DNA from: Candidatus Calditenuaceae archaeon HR02
GTDB lineage: Archaea > Thermoproteota > Nitrososphaeria_A > Caldarchaeales > Calditenuaceae
Length of the DNA: 64,000 nucleotides
NCBI GenBank assembly: GCA_002898395.1
Contig: BEHE01000001.1
Span: forward strand, 64,001 to 128,000
Reading direction: 5' to 3'
Below the pieces are notes generated by a model. It worked only from the letters and a program-made list of their open reading frames with translations. It ran no database searches and was not told the origin of the DNA. This document shows positions 53,283-58,020 of this stretch, in pieces. Within the stretch, counting starts at the first letter, position 1; the number at the start of each line of letters is the position of its first letter. The position numbers were made by a program, and so were the translations under genes.

Positions 53283-53497
53283 GATAGCGTCCGGATAAGC
53301 ATCTTTGCATGTAATCTTGCTCGACCTGCTCTATATATTTAAAAAGGGTCGACTGATGTCCTTGAGGTCCTCTACGGCGCCCTAGGACGCCCCGCTACCT
53401 TTACTTTCGGGCTTTCCACCACATCTGAAAATACCTGAGACTAAACACTACAACCAAAGCCCGGCCTTTAAAAATACCAGCTTATCCGGGCACTATC
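53283..53497. mobile_element. MITE copy 1 (215 bp, non-coding, 17-18 bp TIRs)
   Basis: GATAGCGTCCGGATAAGC ... GCTTATCCGGGCACTATC; interior homologous to the reverse complement of 56151-56353. Confidence 0.8.
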
Positions 53498-53981: not shown

Positions 53982-54285
53982 TTTTCAACTCACATTTTTG
54001 GGATCAGACGCAGGTAGTGGATTTCAGCGACGCCATAGCCGCAATAATCTTTCAATTCCCTTTTTGGGATCAGACCAGAACAAGAAGTAGAAACAAGCAA
54101 CAACCCCGGCGAACTAGACATCTTTCAATTCCCTTTTTGGGATCAGAATAGCATAAACACCAAATGGCCGGAAATAAGCGCGAGGCTCTCCTTTCAATTC
54201 CCTTTTTGGGATCAGAAGGCGGAAAGGGTCAGGCGCCGTTAGGGGGAAGCCATATATGGTCTTTCAATTCCCTTTTTGGGATCAG
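53982..54285 (-). CRISPR. CRISPR array: 4 identical 25-bp repeats plus 1 degenerate terminal repeat, 4 spacers (41, 48, 44, 45 nt)
   Basis: CTTTCAATTCCCTTTTTGGGATCAG at 54049, 54122, 54191, 54261; degenerate copy 53982-54007; minus-strand repeat ends ATTGAAAG. Confidence 0.95.
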
Positions 54286-54400
54286 TGCTGGGAGTTTTGG
54301 GTTTCTGGTTCGCTTTTGTGCGATTTTTTAGCCGTGGTTTGCGGCGAGTATAGTTAATTGTTGGGACTATTTAATGTTCAACTACAACGCCGTTATACTG
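54286..54400 (-). promoter_or_regulatory. Putative CRISPR leader
   Basis: Low-complexity non-coding tract next to the non-degenerate end of the array, with a TATA-like TTAAATA on the minus strand near 54370. Confidence 0.6.
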
Positions 54401-54479: not shown

Positions 54480-56015
54480 ATGGACAGCCAGAGCAAGAGG
54501 GGGCTTCTGGTTATCGCCCCGGTTGGAGACCCAACGGCATGGAGACTGGCCGAATACAGAATCGGGGGGAGGAAAGTCAAGAGCTGCTGCTCAGCAACAG
54601 CAATAGTAACAGCTAACACCGAGAAACACCAAAGAGAGAGCAAAACTATCAATATACGCGATAGACTCCCTACCCTGCACACCACTAATACAGAACTGGA
54701 ATCTAAGGCAGAACAGGATCCCGAGAAACGAACTAAAAGAAACGCTGGAGAGACTAATCACAGAAGAGCTTATGAACACGGCTAAACGCTCCAACATAAC
54801 ACTGGTGGAAAAACAGTCCGAAAATACGGTAAGGATAAACAACTGCGAAGTCGCGGTAGAAGCTCATATATCCCAGGAGGCGGGAGAATTCCCAATAAAT
54901 CAAGAAAACCCACCAAAGCTAACGGCTGAGTTCACAGGTGACCCAACCGCAGTATTCTGGAAAATCATCCAAACGCAGTTAAACCAAGAACATCAAAACC
55001 AGAGAATAATCCTAGACCTAACACACGGAATAAACTACGTGCAATCCATGAGCATATACGCGCTGGAGATCCTAAAAACAATAAAGAATCTAAGAGAAAT
55101 AGAGATTAATAACTCCTCACCATACCCAGCCGGCATATACGAAACTGAAATATGCTTCATCAAAACCCAGAAGACAAGACCGCAAAAACTAATGATAGAA
55201 CCAACCCTAAAAGTACTAGACATCACAGCAATAAGCAACATATGGGATCTAGCAAAAACCCTCTCAACCTACATGGTAACAAAAGAAGAGAACACAAACA
55301 TAAGGAAGGCACTACATGAAATACGAAAAGACATGCCCCAGGGCATGCTGGATAACATGCGGCGAATAATCCTAGCCCTGTTTTACCTAAGCCAAGGAAT
55401 AATAACGATAGGATACTATAATCTATGTAGGGTAGACGCCAGAGGGCTGGAAGAAAGTCGCGAAGAATACCTTAGGAGTATAGAGGAGAATGAAATCCTA
55501 TATGAGCGATCGAAGCAGAGCATAAGCTGGTGATAAACTACCAGAAGACTGTGGCATACGCCCACACACTACCAACAATAACAACGGCAATATATAAGGA
55601 GCTGATAAAGATAACAAACATCCCAGCAAAAGTGAAGAGTGAGAAGATAACAGTAGATATGGGCGAGCTTATCAGAACCGTAGAGAAACTAAGCGAGAGA
55701 AACCCAATATACAGTGCGCACCTAACATCCCTAACCTACGAGAAGAAAGAAATACTCGATAAAGTGAAAGAGTTGGGCAAAACCGAATTCAGCATGAGCA
55801 GAAGAGAAGACACGATAATAGTCCACTCACCTGACGGAACAAGGTTAAGCGAGCTAAGCCCAACCGAACGTAAACGTCACTTAATAGCCCACGCAGGAAT
55901 AACATACGAACCCATAACGCACATCAAGATAAACCCACAGACAAAAACAATCAAATTAACAATAGAGCCTCAACAACTAACAGAAGACCCACTAAAAACA
56001 TGGCTCACTAGCTAA
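54480..56015 (+). pseudogene. csx1: Csx1-family CARF-HEPN ribonuclease split into three ORFs (54480-54785, 54772-55533, 55530-56015)
   Basis: APVGDPTAW..AEY (CARF N-terminus), IYAIDSL and ILDLTHGINY in the second frame, HEPN RHLIAHAG in the third; total about 510 codons. Confidence 0.82.
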
Positions 56016-56150
56016 ATCTCCTCCACGATCAGCGACGTCATACGCTCAATCCATATGCTATGCATCGGATCATTATAAAAGAATCACTTTTACTGCATGT
56101 AGATTTGTCCGGATAATGGGATATATTTAAAGGCTTAACGTCTCTTCCGT

Positions 56151-56353
56151 GGTAGTGTCCGGATAAGCTGCTATAATTTAAAGTCGGGGCCTGGTTGTAA
56201 TAATATCGTTTCAGGTGTATCGGAGAGTCTTGAGGTCAAGGTACTGGGCATCCTGGGGCACCGTAGAGGGTCTCAAGGAAATCATTACGGCCCTTTTTAA
56301 TTATACAGAGCAAGCCAAGAAAGATTACTAACAAAGACGTCTTATCCGGACAC
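56151..56353. mobile_element. MITE copy 2, inverted relative to copy 1; right TIR split by the IS110 insertion (remainder TATC at 57530-57533)
   Basis: GGTAGTGTCCGGATAAGC ... CTTATCCGGACAC; joining to 57530 restores CTTATCCGGACACTATC. Confidence 0.82.
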
Positions 56354-56485
56354 CTATGTGGGGCCTACTCCTCTATTTAAGGCAAACACCTATACGCCCT
56401 AACGAAGGGCACTATCCCAACCACGCCACCAGGCCCCACAACCACTATCACGCGCTAAGAAGCGCAGTCCGATACTCGTATCTAG
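56354..56485 (-). ncRNA. Predicted bridge/seek RNA of the IS110 element
   Basis: Two parallel modules T-GCGC-TTCTTA-GCGC-GT-GATAGTG and T-GCCC-TTCGTTA-GGGC-GT-ATAGGTG; the 7-mers equal the target flank and the element's own end; second module enclosed by TGTGGGGCCT/AGGCCCCACA stem. Confidence 0.75.
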
Positions 56486-57478
56486 TTATTGGGCCTGAGC
56501 ATGATTCACGAACGGTCTCCTATCCCTAAGCATCGCGTAGCAGCACCTCAACAACCTCCTAGCCAGCGCTACTATAGCCACCTTCTTACCACGCCTAGCA
56601 GCAATCCTATGATAAGCCCTAGTGAAGTGCGTATCATACTTTACATGGACGTGGGCAGCCTCAACCATAATTCACCTAAGCCACCTAGACCCCTCCCTAG
56701 TTATCCCACCCCTCCTCATCCTTCCACCACTACTCCTCTCTGAAGGAACTAGGCCGGCATAGCTGCATAGATGATCAGCGTCAGGGAACCTAGCGATGTC
56801 ACCGATCTCTGCCTTTATCATCAATGCCGAGTACAATCCAACGCCTGGTATAGTCATGAGAAGCCTAACATCCTCATCACTAGAGTATTCGCCTAGCTCC
56901 CTAGATACAAGACCTATCTCCTAGTTCAAACCCTCCAGCAACCTTAGGTACTGGCCTATAGAAGGTATGCCTAGAGACTCCAGCCAATCCAATCCACTCC
57001 TGGTGAATAGCTTGAAATCCCTAGGAACTTCTATGCCCTCTAGAGCTAGTGTAGCTATTATCCTGTTCTTCAGCCTAGTCCTGATCCTCACCAGGAAGGC
57101 CCTCCTCCTAACAAGCTCCCTAACCCTAGCAACATCACCCTCGGGTATGTAAGACATAGGCAAGGCTCCCAGCCTAGCTAGCTCAGCTAAACATTTAGAA
57201 TCGCTCCTATCACTCTTAAGCCTGTTCTCAGCGATGAGCCTAGTCTTCCTGGGATGGGCAACCATTACGTTCAAACCCATACCCCTAAGCCTACTGTACA
57301 TAGGATAGACGTAGCTAGAAGACTCCATAGCTACTAGAGAGACATTTCTGCTAGAAAGGAACGGGTAGACCTCATCCCTAGGCATCCTCCTAGACTCCAC
57401 TACGTTCCCGAACCAGTCAACCAACGTAGCGTCGCAGCATCTCTTATGAACGTCTAAACCGCAGACTAAGCCGCTCAT
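56486..57478 (-). pseudogene. IS110 recombinase/transposase with two in-frame stops (TAG 56921-23, TGA 56672-74)
   Basis: DEDD residues GLDVH, AMESS, KSDRSD; IPGVG, YAGLVP.ERSSGG, VALARRL; all three ORF pieces are in the same frame. Confidence 0.92.
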
Positions 57479-57533
57479 GGCATGCTCTGAGCGGCCCTTA
57501 GAGTTAAGCCTAACCCCACATCGCATCACTATC

Positions 57534-58020
57534 TAGGCCTAGACCCCTACAAGCGGCCAAGTAATGACTCCCACCATCAGCATATACTGGATGCCTCCCA
57601 AACCTCTTGACAAGCTCCCTCAGGAACCTCTCAACTACCAGCTGGTTCCTAGTCCAAGATAGCCACATACCCAGTATCCTCCTCTCTAATGGCTCATATG
57701 CTATAAAGAACCAAGCACTAGAACCACCTATCCTAACCTCAGTATCATCTATCAGGAATAGTGATACCCTACATCTAGATGCGTAGACATTCCTAAACCC
57801 CTTAAGCCTCTTCTCCCAAAGCCAGACAGAAACATGACTCACCACGACGAAGGCTCTAAAGCCCTAGCCACCCCTCCTAAGACTATTACCCAAATACCTG
57901 AGGTATAATGCATAGAGGACGACAGGCACCGGAGTCCCAGAGACCATCAAGAAAACCCATAAACAAAGAACAAGAAAACCAGGCCATAAACAAAACAATA
58001 AAACCAACTTAACGGACCCC
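57534..58020 (-). mobile_element. Truncated IS6-family element (transposase 5' half, frameshifted)
   Basis: SLRR..VSHVSVWLW...FLIDDTEVRIG...YADGG.HY pattern of archaeal IS6 transposases; truncated exactly at the MITE TIR; possible left end near GGTCCGTTAAGTT (about 58006-58020). Confidence 0.75.

What the first reader, a model, noticed from the sequence alone, without database searches (positions are those of the whole stretch)
56341..57533. Archaeal IS110/IS1111 element whose predicted bridge RNA targets the terminal inverted repeat of a MITE
Seen: removing 56354-57529 rebuilds CTTATCCGGACACTATC, an intact TIR almost identical to the one at 53481-53497, so the element sits exactly inside a MITE end with a shared GTG core. 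On the minus strand the 130-nt region after the recombinase stop holds two modules of the same architecture: (TATCGGAC)T-GCGC-TTCTTA-GCGC-GT-GATAGTG and (GGGATAG)T-GCCC-TTCGTTA-GGGC-GT-ATAGGTG. GATAGTG (56443-56449) equals the left target flank plus core (57527-57533). The CGGA 5' of that hairpin complements the right target flank TCCG. ATAGGTG (56387-56393) equals the element's own end plus core (56351-56357). Established: IS110-family recombinases use a bispecific RNA with target- and donor-binding loops; IS1111-type members encode it downstream of the ORF, and some (IS4321/IS5075) target Tn21 TIRs. Inference: this is a compact, thermophile-derived archaeal RNA-guided recombinase that parasitises another mobile element's ends. 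Caveat: the second donor guide (GGGAT versus donor ATGCG) pairs only partly.
Basis: partly seen in the sequence, partly recalled or inferred. Interest (0 to 1): 0.9.

Follow-up and report, generated by a model that had tools for sequence, protein, structure and literature searches.

The report
Dead archaeal RNA-guided IS in MITE end
A decayed jumping gene of the IS1111/IS110 type sits exactly inside the end repeat of a miniature transposon in a hot-spring archaeon, and it and its relatives carry a small guide RNA whose short guide segments change in step with the sites they land in, so it is a clear new member of a mechanism already known from bacteria.

Summary
Window 56354-57529 (minus strand, 1176 bp) is an IS1111-type member of the IS110 family. 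It has a 330-codon DEDD recombinase gene, 8-nt subterminal inverted repeats and a 132-nt 3' non-coding region. It is inserted between GTG and TC of the 17-bp terminal inverted repeat of a ~205-bp MITE.

The 3' region holds two look-alike modules (guide, U, 4-bp hairpin, G, N, 7-nt guide). I tested the RNA-guide reading with diverged copies in the same genome and with a sister clade in six other genomes (53% protein identity).
- The 7-nt left target guide equals the 7 nt left of the element in 9 of 12 junctions, across five different guide sequences.
- The right target guide, both donor guides and three helices also covary.

A sister subfamily in the same genome has retuned guides and sits in the terminal repeat of a second MITE family.

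- The element is dead: two nonsense mutations here, and every copy in this genome is broken.
- The crossover core is probably the dinucleotide TG.
- The RNA starts inside the gene's last codons.
- It is not unusually compact.

The mechanism, the 3' RNA location and the targeting of transposon ends and MITEs are all published for bacterial IS1111 elements. Verdict: new member of a known kind, moderate interest.

The parts
56354..57529 (-).
   Evidence: The ends were defined by comparison with 9 other 5' ends and 4 other 3' ends in the same genome, and with intact MITE copies.
56486..57478 (-). Recombinase pseudogene, 330 codons plus stop. Start is ATG at 57478-57476. In-frame TAG at 56923-56921 and TGA at 56674-56672.
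   Evidence: In alignment A1 the stops stand where the six intact homologues have Q/E/G and an invariant W. The DEDD residues and the GLVPSxxxSG motif are present.
57514..57521 (-). Left subterminal inverted repeat ATGTGGGG, preceded by the 5-nt terminal extension ATGCG (57526-57522)
   Evidence: I14, 8 nt, 100% complementary.
56356..56363 (-). Right subterminal inverted repeat CCCCACAT, followed by the 2-nt extension AG (56355-56354)
   Evidence: I14.
57527..57529 (-). Left copy of GTG. The comparative data point to a TG dinucleotide core, with the G at -3 coming from the target.
   Evidence: Clade-B left junctions read TTG while their right junctions read GTG. G615 has GCG on both sides.
56351..56353 (-).
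56491..56497 (-). Helix P1, 5' strand CAGGCCC, lying in the last codons of the recombinase gene
   Evidence: I1. It pairs in 50 of 50 cells over 9 sequences, with 2 pairs changed on both sides between clades.
56467..56474 (-). Right target guide UAUCGGAC, complementary to GTCCG(G)ATA of the right flank
56451..56466 (-). Helix P2: target-loop hairpin UGCGC-UUCUUA-GCGCG
   Evidence: RNAalifold, pairs with both-side changes; 49 of 50 cells paired.
56443..56449 (-). Left target guide GAUAGUG, equal to the left flank plus core at 57533-57527
   Evidence: cognate 5 of 5 non-core positions.
56430..56436 (-). Helix P1, 3' strand GGGCCUG. It overlaps a segment (56431-56440) that can instead pair with the right subterminal repeat.
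   Evidence: I1 and I5.
56412..56417 (-). Right donor guide region GGAUAG. Its GGAU pairs with 3 of the element's first 4 bases, ATGC.
   Evidence: C6 and C25 have GCAT, and clade B has CCAT against its own ATGG.
56395..56411 (-). Helix P3: donor-loop hairpin UGCCC-UUCGUUA-GGGCG
   Evidence: 50 of 50 cells paired; two pairs vary C-G / U.G / U-A.
56387..56393 (-). Left donor guide AUAGGUG, equal to the element's last 4 nt plus GTG (56357-56351)
   Evidence: 8 of 9 sequences match exactly.
56373..56380 (-). TTAAATAG, an A/T box facing out of the right end. It may be a TATA box that would drive the recombinase gene across a circle junction (inference only).
   Evidence: Conserved as AAATAG or AAATAA near the right end in both clades. 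Not tested.
56151..56353 (+). MITE-1 body with its left TIR (GGTAGTGTCCGGATAAG, 56151-56167) and the first 13 nt of its right TIR
   Evidence: 87% identical to the C14 and C26 copies.
57530..57533 (+). Last 4 nt (TATC) of the MITE-1 right TIR, separated from the rest by the insertion

Best explanation
This is a dead copy of an IS1111-type insertion sequence of the IS110 family. Its DEDD recombinase was directed by a two-loop bridge/seek RNA encoded at the element's 3' end.

The RNA:
- It starts in the last codons of the recombinase gene (helix P1).
- It presents an internal loop with a right target guide, a 5-bp hairpin and a 7-nt left target guide.
- A second module of the same design follows, with a right donor guide, a hairpin and a left donor guide.

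What the guides match:
- The left guides have the sequence of the top strand: 5 nt of left target, or of the element's right end, plus the TG core.
- The right guides are complementary to the top strand just right of the core.

What this copy did:
- It recombined its circular form (junction ...CACATAG-GTG-ATGCG...) into GATAG-TG-TCCGG.
- That site lies 7 nt inside the terminal inverted repeat of a MITE family. The repeat is a multi-copy, non-essential sequence found across the order.

Shown:
- the anatomy
- the exact insertion site
- guide-to-site and guide-to-end covariation
- helix covariation
- the decay of this copy

Inferred:
- that the RNA is made
- that it binds the recombinase
- that recombination passes through a circle
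For: Family assignment:
- Pfam PF01548 and PF02371.
- NCBIfam NF033542 at 247 bits against a cut-off of 140.
- Homology to the solved ISCro4 and IS621 recombinases, E 3e-14 and 5e-13.
- 8-nt subterminal repeats.
- Long NCR downstream (132 nt against 51 nt upstream).

Site:
- An intact 17-mer is rebuilt on deletion.

Left target guide against left junction:
- 7 of 7 in 9 of 12 junctions, 6 of 7 in 2, and 5 of 7 in 1.
- This holds over 9 elements carrying five different guides: GATAGTG, GAGCGTG, GTTGTTG, CAGACTG, TAGCGCG.
- Non-cognate classes mostly score 0-3 of the 5 non-core positions. The exception is 3.0-4.0 between the GAGCGTG and TAGCGCG classes, whose guides share 4 of these 5 positions.

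Right target guide against right flank, ungapped, of 8:
- C6 8; G649 7; G626 7; G623 7; G605 6; G615 6.
- Window and C12 score 5, or 8 with one bulged base.

Donor guides:
- The left donor guide equals the element end plus core in 8 of 9 sequences. In G615 the core is CG in both guides and both junctions.
- The right donor guide is GCAT against ATGC, or CCAT against ATGG, in 7 of 9.

Helices:
- P1 is paired in 50 of 50 cells, P2 in 49 of 50, P3 in 50 of 50.
- Two pairs are changed on both sides in P1 and two in P2. P3 varies through U.G to U-A.
- RNAalifold finds P2 on its own.

Targets:
- The C6/C25 subfamily, with guides UUUUCGAC/GAGCGUG, sits in the terminal repeat GAGCGTG|TCGAAAA of a second MITE family.
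- C12 sits in the same TIR-1 sequence of a different element type.
- Truncated copies in two other genomes abut GATACTG, a TIR-1 variant that occurs in one of those genomes.

Guide order:
- It matches published IS1111 seekRNAs (PMC11187229, section 9).
Against: - There are no RNA data. No RNA run holds the stretch, and no Rfam family matches.
- The MFE fold of the NCR is only z = -2.0, and it pairs the two target guides with each other, because the site is partly palindromic.
- C12's left target guide matches its site at only 5 of 7.
- The four right flanks of the G375 element match their right target guide poorly (mean 3.8 of 8).
- The window's right target guide needs a one-base bulge beyond 5 nt.
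- The right donor guide does not pair with the core.
- The closing helix of the donor loop is not resolved. P1's 3' strand can instead pair with the right subterminal repeat (I5).
- The helix strands and guide registers were anchored by eye and by regular expressions, not by an unbiased structural alignment. MAFFT misaligned the hairpin arms between clades.
- The clade-B genomes belong to one genus, so its six elements are not independent.
- The recombinase is broken in every copy in this genome, so nothing here can be active.
Confidence: 0.85

Rival explanations
1. The element is an IS1111-type IS, but the terminal repeat is recognised by the protein or through DNA structure. The site contains the palindrome TTATCCGGATAA. 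On this reading the 3' motifs are protein-binding or terminator elements, and their matches to the flanks are by-products.
For: The target is partly palindromic. The NCR's MFE fold is only marginally better than shuffles. No RNA evidence is available.
Against: Five unrelated 7-mers track five unrelated left junctions, including non-palindromic, non-TIR sites in clade B. The core switch to CG appears in both guides and both junctions of G615. Bacterial members of the same family have been shown experimentally to use such an RNA (PMC11187229 sections 6, 9 and 13, and passages of PMC11208160).
Confidence: 0.06
2. The copies in terminal repeats did not arise by repeated targeted insertion. A single IS-in-TIR event was spread passively, by transposition or recombination of the host element, or by recombination between IS copies.
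For: Copies are mosaics. C25 is 92-94% window-like over alignment columns 1-500 and 701-800 (83% in 601-700, and no figure for 501-600, where C25 has a gap). It is 97-100% C6-like over columns 801-1000. C12 has a hybrid guide pair, so recombination between copies certainly happened.
Against: The window copy lies in MITE-1, C12 lies in a different element type with the same TIR (interior CATCTTTA...), and C6 lies in MITE-2. The sequences beyond the repeats differ in each case. The orientation relative to the repeat is the same in 3 of 3 copies. The guides differ exactly as the two repeat families differ.
Confidence: 0.05
3. The similarity of the two 7-mers to the junctions in the window copy is chance, helped by the low complexity of ATAG-type strings.
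For: GATAGTG also occurs a second time in the NCR, across the right donor guide and the start of hairpin 2. So such strings are frequent in this region.
Against: Both 7-mers occur together in 21 of 20000 shuffles, and with the 5-mer in 0 of 20000. There is also positional conservation and covariation across 10 sequences.
Confidence: 0.02

Closest known systems
IS1111-family elements with a 3'-encoded seekRNA/bridge RNA (ISEc11, ISKpn4, ISPa11, ISPst6; Siddiquee et al. 2024, PMC11187229; Durrant et al. 2024, PMC11208160)
   Same: - DEDD recombinase of 330-350 aa with the GL-P----SG motif.
- Subterminal inverted repeats with short terminal extensions.
- The long non-coding region lies downstream of the gene.
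- The RNA has a top-strand-complementary segment 5' of a bottom-strand-complementary segment.
- Target and donor modules are both present.
   Different: - The host is an archaeon from a hot spring.
- The RNA's first helix begins inside the coding sequence.
- No Rfam model matches.
- No experiment has been done.
- The copy is dead.
[quoted passage not shown] Partridge & Hall 2003 was seen only as reference 10 of PMC11208160; the details are recalled.
   Same: Site- and orientation-specific insertion inside another transposon's terminal inverted repeat.
   Different: The target there is a bacterial Tn3-family transposon. Here the targets are 17-18-bp repeats of archaeal MITEs and related non-autonomous elements, with two subfamilies aimed at two repeat families.
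IS1111 of Coxiella burnetii inserting into QMITE2 (passage in the review PMC10969869)
   Same: An IS1111-type element uses a MITE as its landing site.
   Different: There the recognised feature is described as a GTAG repetitive extragenic palindrome within the MITE, not the terminal inverted repeat. It is also bacterial.
IS621 bridge recombinase and bridge RNA (PMC11208160; PDB 8wt6)
   Same: Homologous recombinase (E 5e-13). A two-loop RNA with left and right guides for target and donor, and a dinucleotide core. The right donor guide pairs discontiguously.
   Different: In IS621 the RNA lies in the left end and the guide order is reversed. The core is CT rather than TG. IS621 has only 2-3-bp subterminal repeats.

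Membership tests
IS110 family (DEDD RNA-guided recombinases) | Recombinase with an N-terminal DEDD/RuvC-like domain (PF01548) and a C-terminal PF02371 domain | tested here: met
   E 8.5e-18 and 1.4e-24. NF033542 at 247 bits against a cut-off of 140. D26, E69, D107 and D110 (numbering of the 347-residue read-through) are invariant in alignment A1.
IS110 family (DEDD RNA-guided recombinases) | Intact, potentially active recombinase gene | tested here: not met
   Two nonsense codons in the window copy. The other copies are frameshifted, deleted or truncated. This makes the copy a pseudogene; it does not bear on family membership.
IS1111 group | Subterminal inverted repeats of 7-17 bp with short terminal extensions | tested here: met
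   ATGTGGGG / CCCCACAT, 8 nt, 100% complementary (I14). Extensions are ATGCG on the left and AG on the right. The 7-17 bp range is from PMC11208160.
IS1111 group | The longer non-coding region lies downstream of the recombinase gene | tested here: met
   132 nt downstream against 51 nt upstream of the ATG at 57478. The criterion is from PMC11187229, section 6.
IS1111 group | Recombinase of 330-350 aa with the C-terminal GL-P----S(T)G motif | tested here: met
   330 codons from M18. GLVPSERSSG is conserved in alignment A1.
IS1111 group | seekRNA/bridge RNA with a top-strand-complementary segment 5' of a bottom-strand-complementary segment, both matching the target | tested here: met
   By sequence and covariation only. 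Expression and binding of the RNA cannot be tested here.
IS1111 group | RNA co-purifies with the recombinase and is required for transposition | not testable with these tools
   No RNA run holds the locus. This needs an experiment.
MITE (for the host element) | Short, non-coding, with terminal inverted repeats, flanking target-site duplication, and multiple copies | tested here: met
   ~205-218 bp with a 17-bp TIR. 8-bp duplications at 2 copies (C26; C6:18682-18899). 6 copies in the genome. The window copy itself has no duplication. The autonomous partner was not identified.

The most novel reading that the evidence does not exclude
A lineage of IS1111-type bridge recombinases in thermophilic archaea lives as a specialised hyperparasite of other transposons' termini. 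It switches between terminal-repeat families by changing, and by recombinationally swapping, its guide modules.

In one 1.7-Mb genome:
- One subfamily (UAUCGGAC/GAUAGUG) is aimed at GATAG-TG-TCCGGATA.
- Another subfamily (UUUUCGAC/GAGCGUG) is aimed at GAGCG-TG-TCGAAAA, the end of a second MITE family.
- There is a mosaic element (C25) and a hybrid-guide element (C12) that look like intermediates.

Both repeats are hit at the same position, 7 nt from the MITE terminus, which would split and probably disable the repeat.
Probability: 0.45. Interest if true: 0.55.

Novelty: new member of a known kind. Interest (0 to 1): 0.42.

Why it matters
- It extends RNA-guided IS1111 recombination, with sequence-level covariation evidence, to thermophilic archaea.
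- It gives a natural example of guide retuning between two related target families inside one genome.
- It points to intact relatives as candidate heat-tolerant bridge recombinases with a defined 7+5-8-nt target code and a TG core. These are P0001 (83% identical, 330 aa) and the elements in G649 and G626.
- For annotation, it explains why these elements sit in MITE ends and gives a simple rule for finding the element boundaries.
- It changes no principle. The mechanism and the habit of landing in transposon ends and MITEs are already published for bacteria.

Tried and rejected
- Rfam scan of 56000-57800 at E up to 10 gave only two chance hits (snoR30, mir-87).
- Single-sequence folding was uninformative. 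The MFE structure pairs the two target guides with each other.
- MAFFT alignments of the NCR across the two clades (A2, A3, A4) put hairpin arms out of register. I therefore did not use the count of structure pairs and did not build a covariance model. I counted pairs on regex-anchored segments instead. That is less neutral, and no shuffle control was run for it.
- RNAalifold on A2 recovered P2. Its other helices in the donor half rest on the misalignment, so I did not use them.
- The viral contigs pattern scan gave 2 loci (L056, L057) with no surrounding architecture. I take them as chance matches.
- The search for related loci with the single protein gave 4 loci in genome contigs and 5 in metagenome contigs. 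Apart from a 77%-identical truncated copy, they are 37-49% identical, too distant for the guide test. Several still show ATAG plus core repeated before the right end.
- The genome search found the protein at E <= 1e-20 in 4 of 61 relatives and at E <= 1e-60 in 5 of 401 genomes of the phylum sample, both counts including G000.
- Sequencing runs: no RNA holder is listed. One hot-spring metagenome run (X1) holds a small share as contigs. Laying it showed only short related pieces at 85-99% identity and no contig across an empty site or a circle junction. Three contigs join the element's right end to GTGTCTAAAAATTC..., which resembles the second repeat family. I treat this as a hint only.
- The sigma-70 promoter/terminator scan does not apply to an archaeon, so I ignored it.
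- The autonomous transposon that owns the 17-bp repeat was not found. The sequence beside C1:31424 turns into other repeats after ~330 nt.
- The ~490-bp repeat to the right of 57532 is a weak IS240/IS6-like remnant (E 0.0016, below the Pfam cut-off). It is not part of the finding.
- Literature: searches found no paper describing an archaeal IS110/IS1111 element aimed at MITE terminal repeats. Supplementary tables of PMC11208160 and PMC11187229 list the elements for which bridge or seek RNAs were predicted.
Full report
WHAT IS THERE.

The window is G000:C1:64001-128000 of a 1.73-Mb, 36-contig archaeal genome. On the minus strand, 57529 to 56354 is a 1176-bp element.
- Its translation matches both IS110-family Pfam domains: PF01548, E 8.5e-18, and PF02371, E 1.4e-24.
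- It matches NCBIfam NF033542, 'IS110 family RNA-guided transposase', at 247 bits against a cut-off of 140.
- The closest intact protein is P0001 (330 aa, 83% identical). P0001 is homologous to the solved ISCro4 and IS621 recombinases, E 2.8e-14 and 4.8e-13.

Aligned with six intact homologues (A1):
- The real start is the ATG at 57478, giving 330 codons.
- The DEDD residues and the GLVPSxxxSG motif are present.
- The two in-frame stops lie where the homologues have Q, E or G (TAG, 56923-56921) and an invariant W (TGA, 56674-56672).
- So this copy was killed by two point mutations.

The other copies in the genome are 72-93% identical by BLAST. They are frameshifted, internally deleted or truncated. 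None is intact.

THE INSERTION SITE.

- Intact copies of a ~205-bp repeat at C26:12200-12406 and C14:2256-2463 begin GATAGTGTCCGGATAAG and end CTTATCCGGACACTATC.
- The C26 copy is flanked by an 8-bp duplication, CCTGGCTT. The copy at C6:18682-18899 is flanked by ATACAATG.
- BLAST finds 6 copies, two of them in the window: 53283-53497, and 56151-56353 plus 57530-57533.
- Removing 56354-57529 restores the right-hand 17-mer exactly.
- So the element lies inside the MITE's terminal inverted repeat, 7 nt from the MITE terminus, with GTG on both sides.

The 17-mer, with up to one mismatch, occurs 14 times in G000. It occurs in 17 of 41 genomes of the order sample, G000 included, against 0-1 hits for the reversed control. 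The recombinase was found in only 4 of 61 relatives, G000 included. The landing site is therefore an abundant, order-wide repeat.

ENDS.

Ten 5' ends and five 3' ends in G000 define the conserved termini: ATGCG-ATGTGGGG ... CCCCACAT-AG. These are 8-nt subterminal inverted repeats (I14) with 5-nt and 2-nt extensions.

Together with the downstream position of the long NCR and the protein length and motif, this meets the published criteria for the IS1111 group (PMC11187229, section 6, read in full; PMC11208160, passages).

THE 3' REGION AND THE TEST OF THE RNA-GUIDE READING.

The NCR has two modules of one design: guide, U, 4-bp stem, loop, stem, G, N, 7-mer.

A sister clade was found in six genomes of one genus (G375, G649, G626, G605, G623, G615). 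Its proteins are 53% identical to the window's, and five are intact. It has the same design.

1. Left target guide (the 7-mer after hairpin 1) against the 7 nt to the left of the element.
- Window: GATAGTG against GATAGTG.
- C25: GAGCGTG against GAGCGTG.
- C6: GAGCGTG against GGGCGTG.
- C12: GAGCGTG against GATAGTG.
- G375: GTTGTTG against GTTGTTG at three junctions and TTTGTTG at one.
- G649 and G626: GTTGTTG against GTTGTTG.
- G623: CAGACTG against CAGACTG.
- G615: TAGCGCG against TAGCGCG.
- In total, 9 of 12 junctions are perfect, 2 match 6 of 7 and 1 matches 5 of 7.
- G605 was dropped because its left end is not in the contig.
- In the all-against-all table, non-cognate classes score 0-3 of the 5 non-core positions. 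The exception is 3.0-4.0 between the GAGCGTG and TAGCGCG classes, whose guides share 4 of these 5 positions.

2. Right target guide (the 8-mer before the U of hairpin 1), reverse-complemented, against the right flank from the last core base.
- C6 8 of 8; G649, G626 and G623 7 of 8; G605 and G615 6 of 8.
- Window and C12 score 5 of 8 ungapped, or all 8 if one G of the DNA is bulged.
- The four G375 flanks average only 3.8 of 8.

3. Left donor guide.
- It equals the last 4 nt of the element plus the next 3 nt in 8 of 9 sequences.
- C12 has lost one base at the junction.
- In G615 the core is CG instead of TG in the left target guide, the left donor guide and both junctions.

4. Right donor guide.
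- GCAT (C6, C25) faces ATGC. CCAT (five clade-B elements with a known left end) faces ATGG. That is 7 of 9 perfect.
- The window (GGAT) and C12 (GTAT) have one mismatch each.
- It does not pair with the core. A discontiguous right-donor pairing is also reported for IS621 (PMC11208160, passage).

5. Helices (strands taken from the anchored parse).
- P1 joins the gene's last codons (CAGGCC) to GGCCUG after the left target guide. It pairs in 50 of 50 cells. Two pairs change on both sides between clades (G-C to A-U, G-C to C-G), and G615 has one G.U.
- P2 (hairpin 1) pairs in 49 of 50 cells, with two pairs changed on both sides. RNAalifold on a MAFFT alignment finds the same helix and the same changes.
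- P3 (hairpin 2) pairs in 50 of 50 cells, with two pairs running C-G, U.G, U-A.
- The repeat finder sees P1 independently in the window (I1).

CORE AND GUIDE ORDER.

In clade B the left junction reads TTG and the right junction GTG. The exchanged core is therefore most simply the dinucleotide TG, and the shared G at -3 in the window is a coincidence of this target.

The guide order is right (top-strand-complementary) guide 5' and left (bottom-strand-complementary) guide 3'. This is the order published for IS1111 seekRNAs and the reverse of the IS110 group (PMC11187229, abstract and section 9).

A SECOND TARGET FAMILY.

The site predicted for the C6/C25 guides, GAGCGTG|TCGAAAA, is itself the terminal inverted repeat of another small element.
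- C7:42810-42954 is 145 bp with a 9-bp duplication, CTTCGAGAG.
- C13:6413-6557 is another copy.
- Longer elements carry the same ends.

The C6 element sits in the right repeat of a third copy, C6:44826-44966. The match stops exactly at the IS, and the position and orientation relative to the MITE terminus are the same as in the window.

C12 carries the window-type right guide and the C6-type left guide. It sits in the TIR-1 sequence of a different element type.

C25 is a mosaic.
- It is 92-94% window-like over alignment columns 1-500 and 701-800, and 83% in columns 601-700. Columns 501-600 give no figure because C25 has a gap there.
- It is 97-100% C6-like over columns 801-1000.
- So guide modules have been exchanged by recombination.

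Truncated copies in other genomes abut GATACTG (G038, G031) and GGCACTG (G024). GATACTGTCCGGATAAG occurs as a repeat variant in G038.

WEAK POINTS.

- No RNA evidence exists.
- The single-sequence fold is unremarkable (z = -2.0) and is confounded by the palindromic target.
- The donor loop's closing helix is unresolved. P1's 3' strand can alternatively pair with the right subterminal repeat (I5). That alternative is strong only in this clade.
- The pair counts rest on my own anchoring, because MAFFT misregistered the arms.
- The clade-B elements come from one genus.

COMPARISON WITH WHAT IS KNOWN.

Bridge or seek RNAs in the right end of IS1111 elements were predicted for 93% of the ISfinder members (PMC11208160, passage). 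They were shown experimentally for four of them (PMC11187229).

Published targets include:
- IS4321 and IS5075, which target Tn21-family terminal repeats. This was seen only as a cited title, and the details are recalled.
- IS1111 of Coxiella, which inserts in QMITE2 (PMC10969869, passage).

Archaeal IS110 recombinases are catalogued, n = 662 (bioRxiv 10.1101/2024.06.21.599552, passages).

Four full-text searches found no description of an archaeal member aimed at MITE terminal repeats.

VERDICT.

This is a decayed new member of a known kind, and the pair of retuned subfamilies is its most interesting feature.

Noticed in passing
window 54047-54295: A small CRISPR array. Four copies of CTTTCAATTCCCTTTTTGGGATCAG are spaced 69-73 bp apart. 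A further degenerate repeat (...CACATTTTTGGGATCAG) ends at about 54008.
   Followed up: partly
window 54480-55533: A Csx1-type CARF gene is split into two overlapping ORFs in different frames. ORF 54480-54785 matches CARF profile positions 1-76, and ORF 54772-55533 matches positions 62-163. It is probably a frameshifted pseudogene next to the array.
   Followed up: partly
window 53283-53497 and 56151-56353: Two copies of MITE-1 in inverted orientation bracket the CRISPR array and the csx1 remnant. No shared target duplication was seen, so a composite-transposon reading is only a thought. A partial extra repeat, GATAGTGTTCG, directly precedes 53283.
   Followed up: no
window 57532-58020: A ~490-bp repeat matched at 17 places on 13 contigs (window copy included), some with an internal deletion. 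It encodes a 111-aa ORF with a weak IS240/IS6-type DDE match (E 0.0016, below the cut-off). In C14 and in Logan contigs it extends further to the left, so the window copy is truncated at the MITE.
   Followed up: partly
G000 C25:330-1367 and C12:53262-54306: Mosaic IS copies. C25 combines a window-like 5' part with a C6-like 3' part. C12 has the right target guide of one subfamily and the left target guide of the other.
   Followed up: partly
L053 (G623), locus 2528-2619: The homologous intact element in G623 lies about 15 nt downstream of a tRNA-Val(TAC) gene. Its left target guide CAGACTG matches that site.
   Followed up: partly
window 56412-56418: In the window copy only, the right donor guide plus the first two hairpin bases reads GATAGTG. 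This is the same 7-mer as the left target guide and the target. Other copies read CATAGTG or TATGGTG, so it is probably coincidence.
   Followed up: no
G001 (same genus), e.g. C1:6195-6302 and C36:13507-13615: Many ~90-110-bp pairs of the same 17-bp repeat in inverted orientation. These suggest a family of very small MITEs with the same ends in a genome where the IS110 protein was not found.
   Followed up: no
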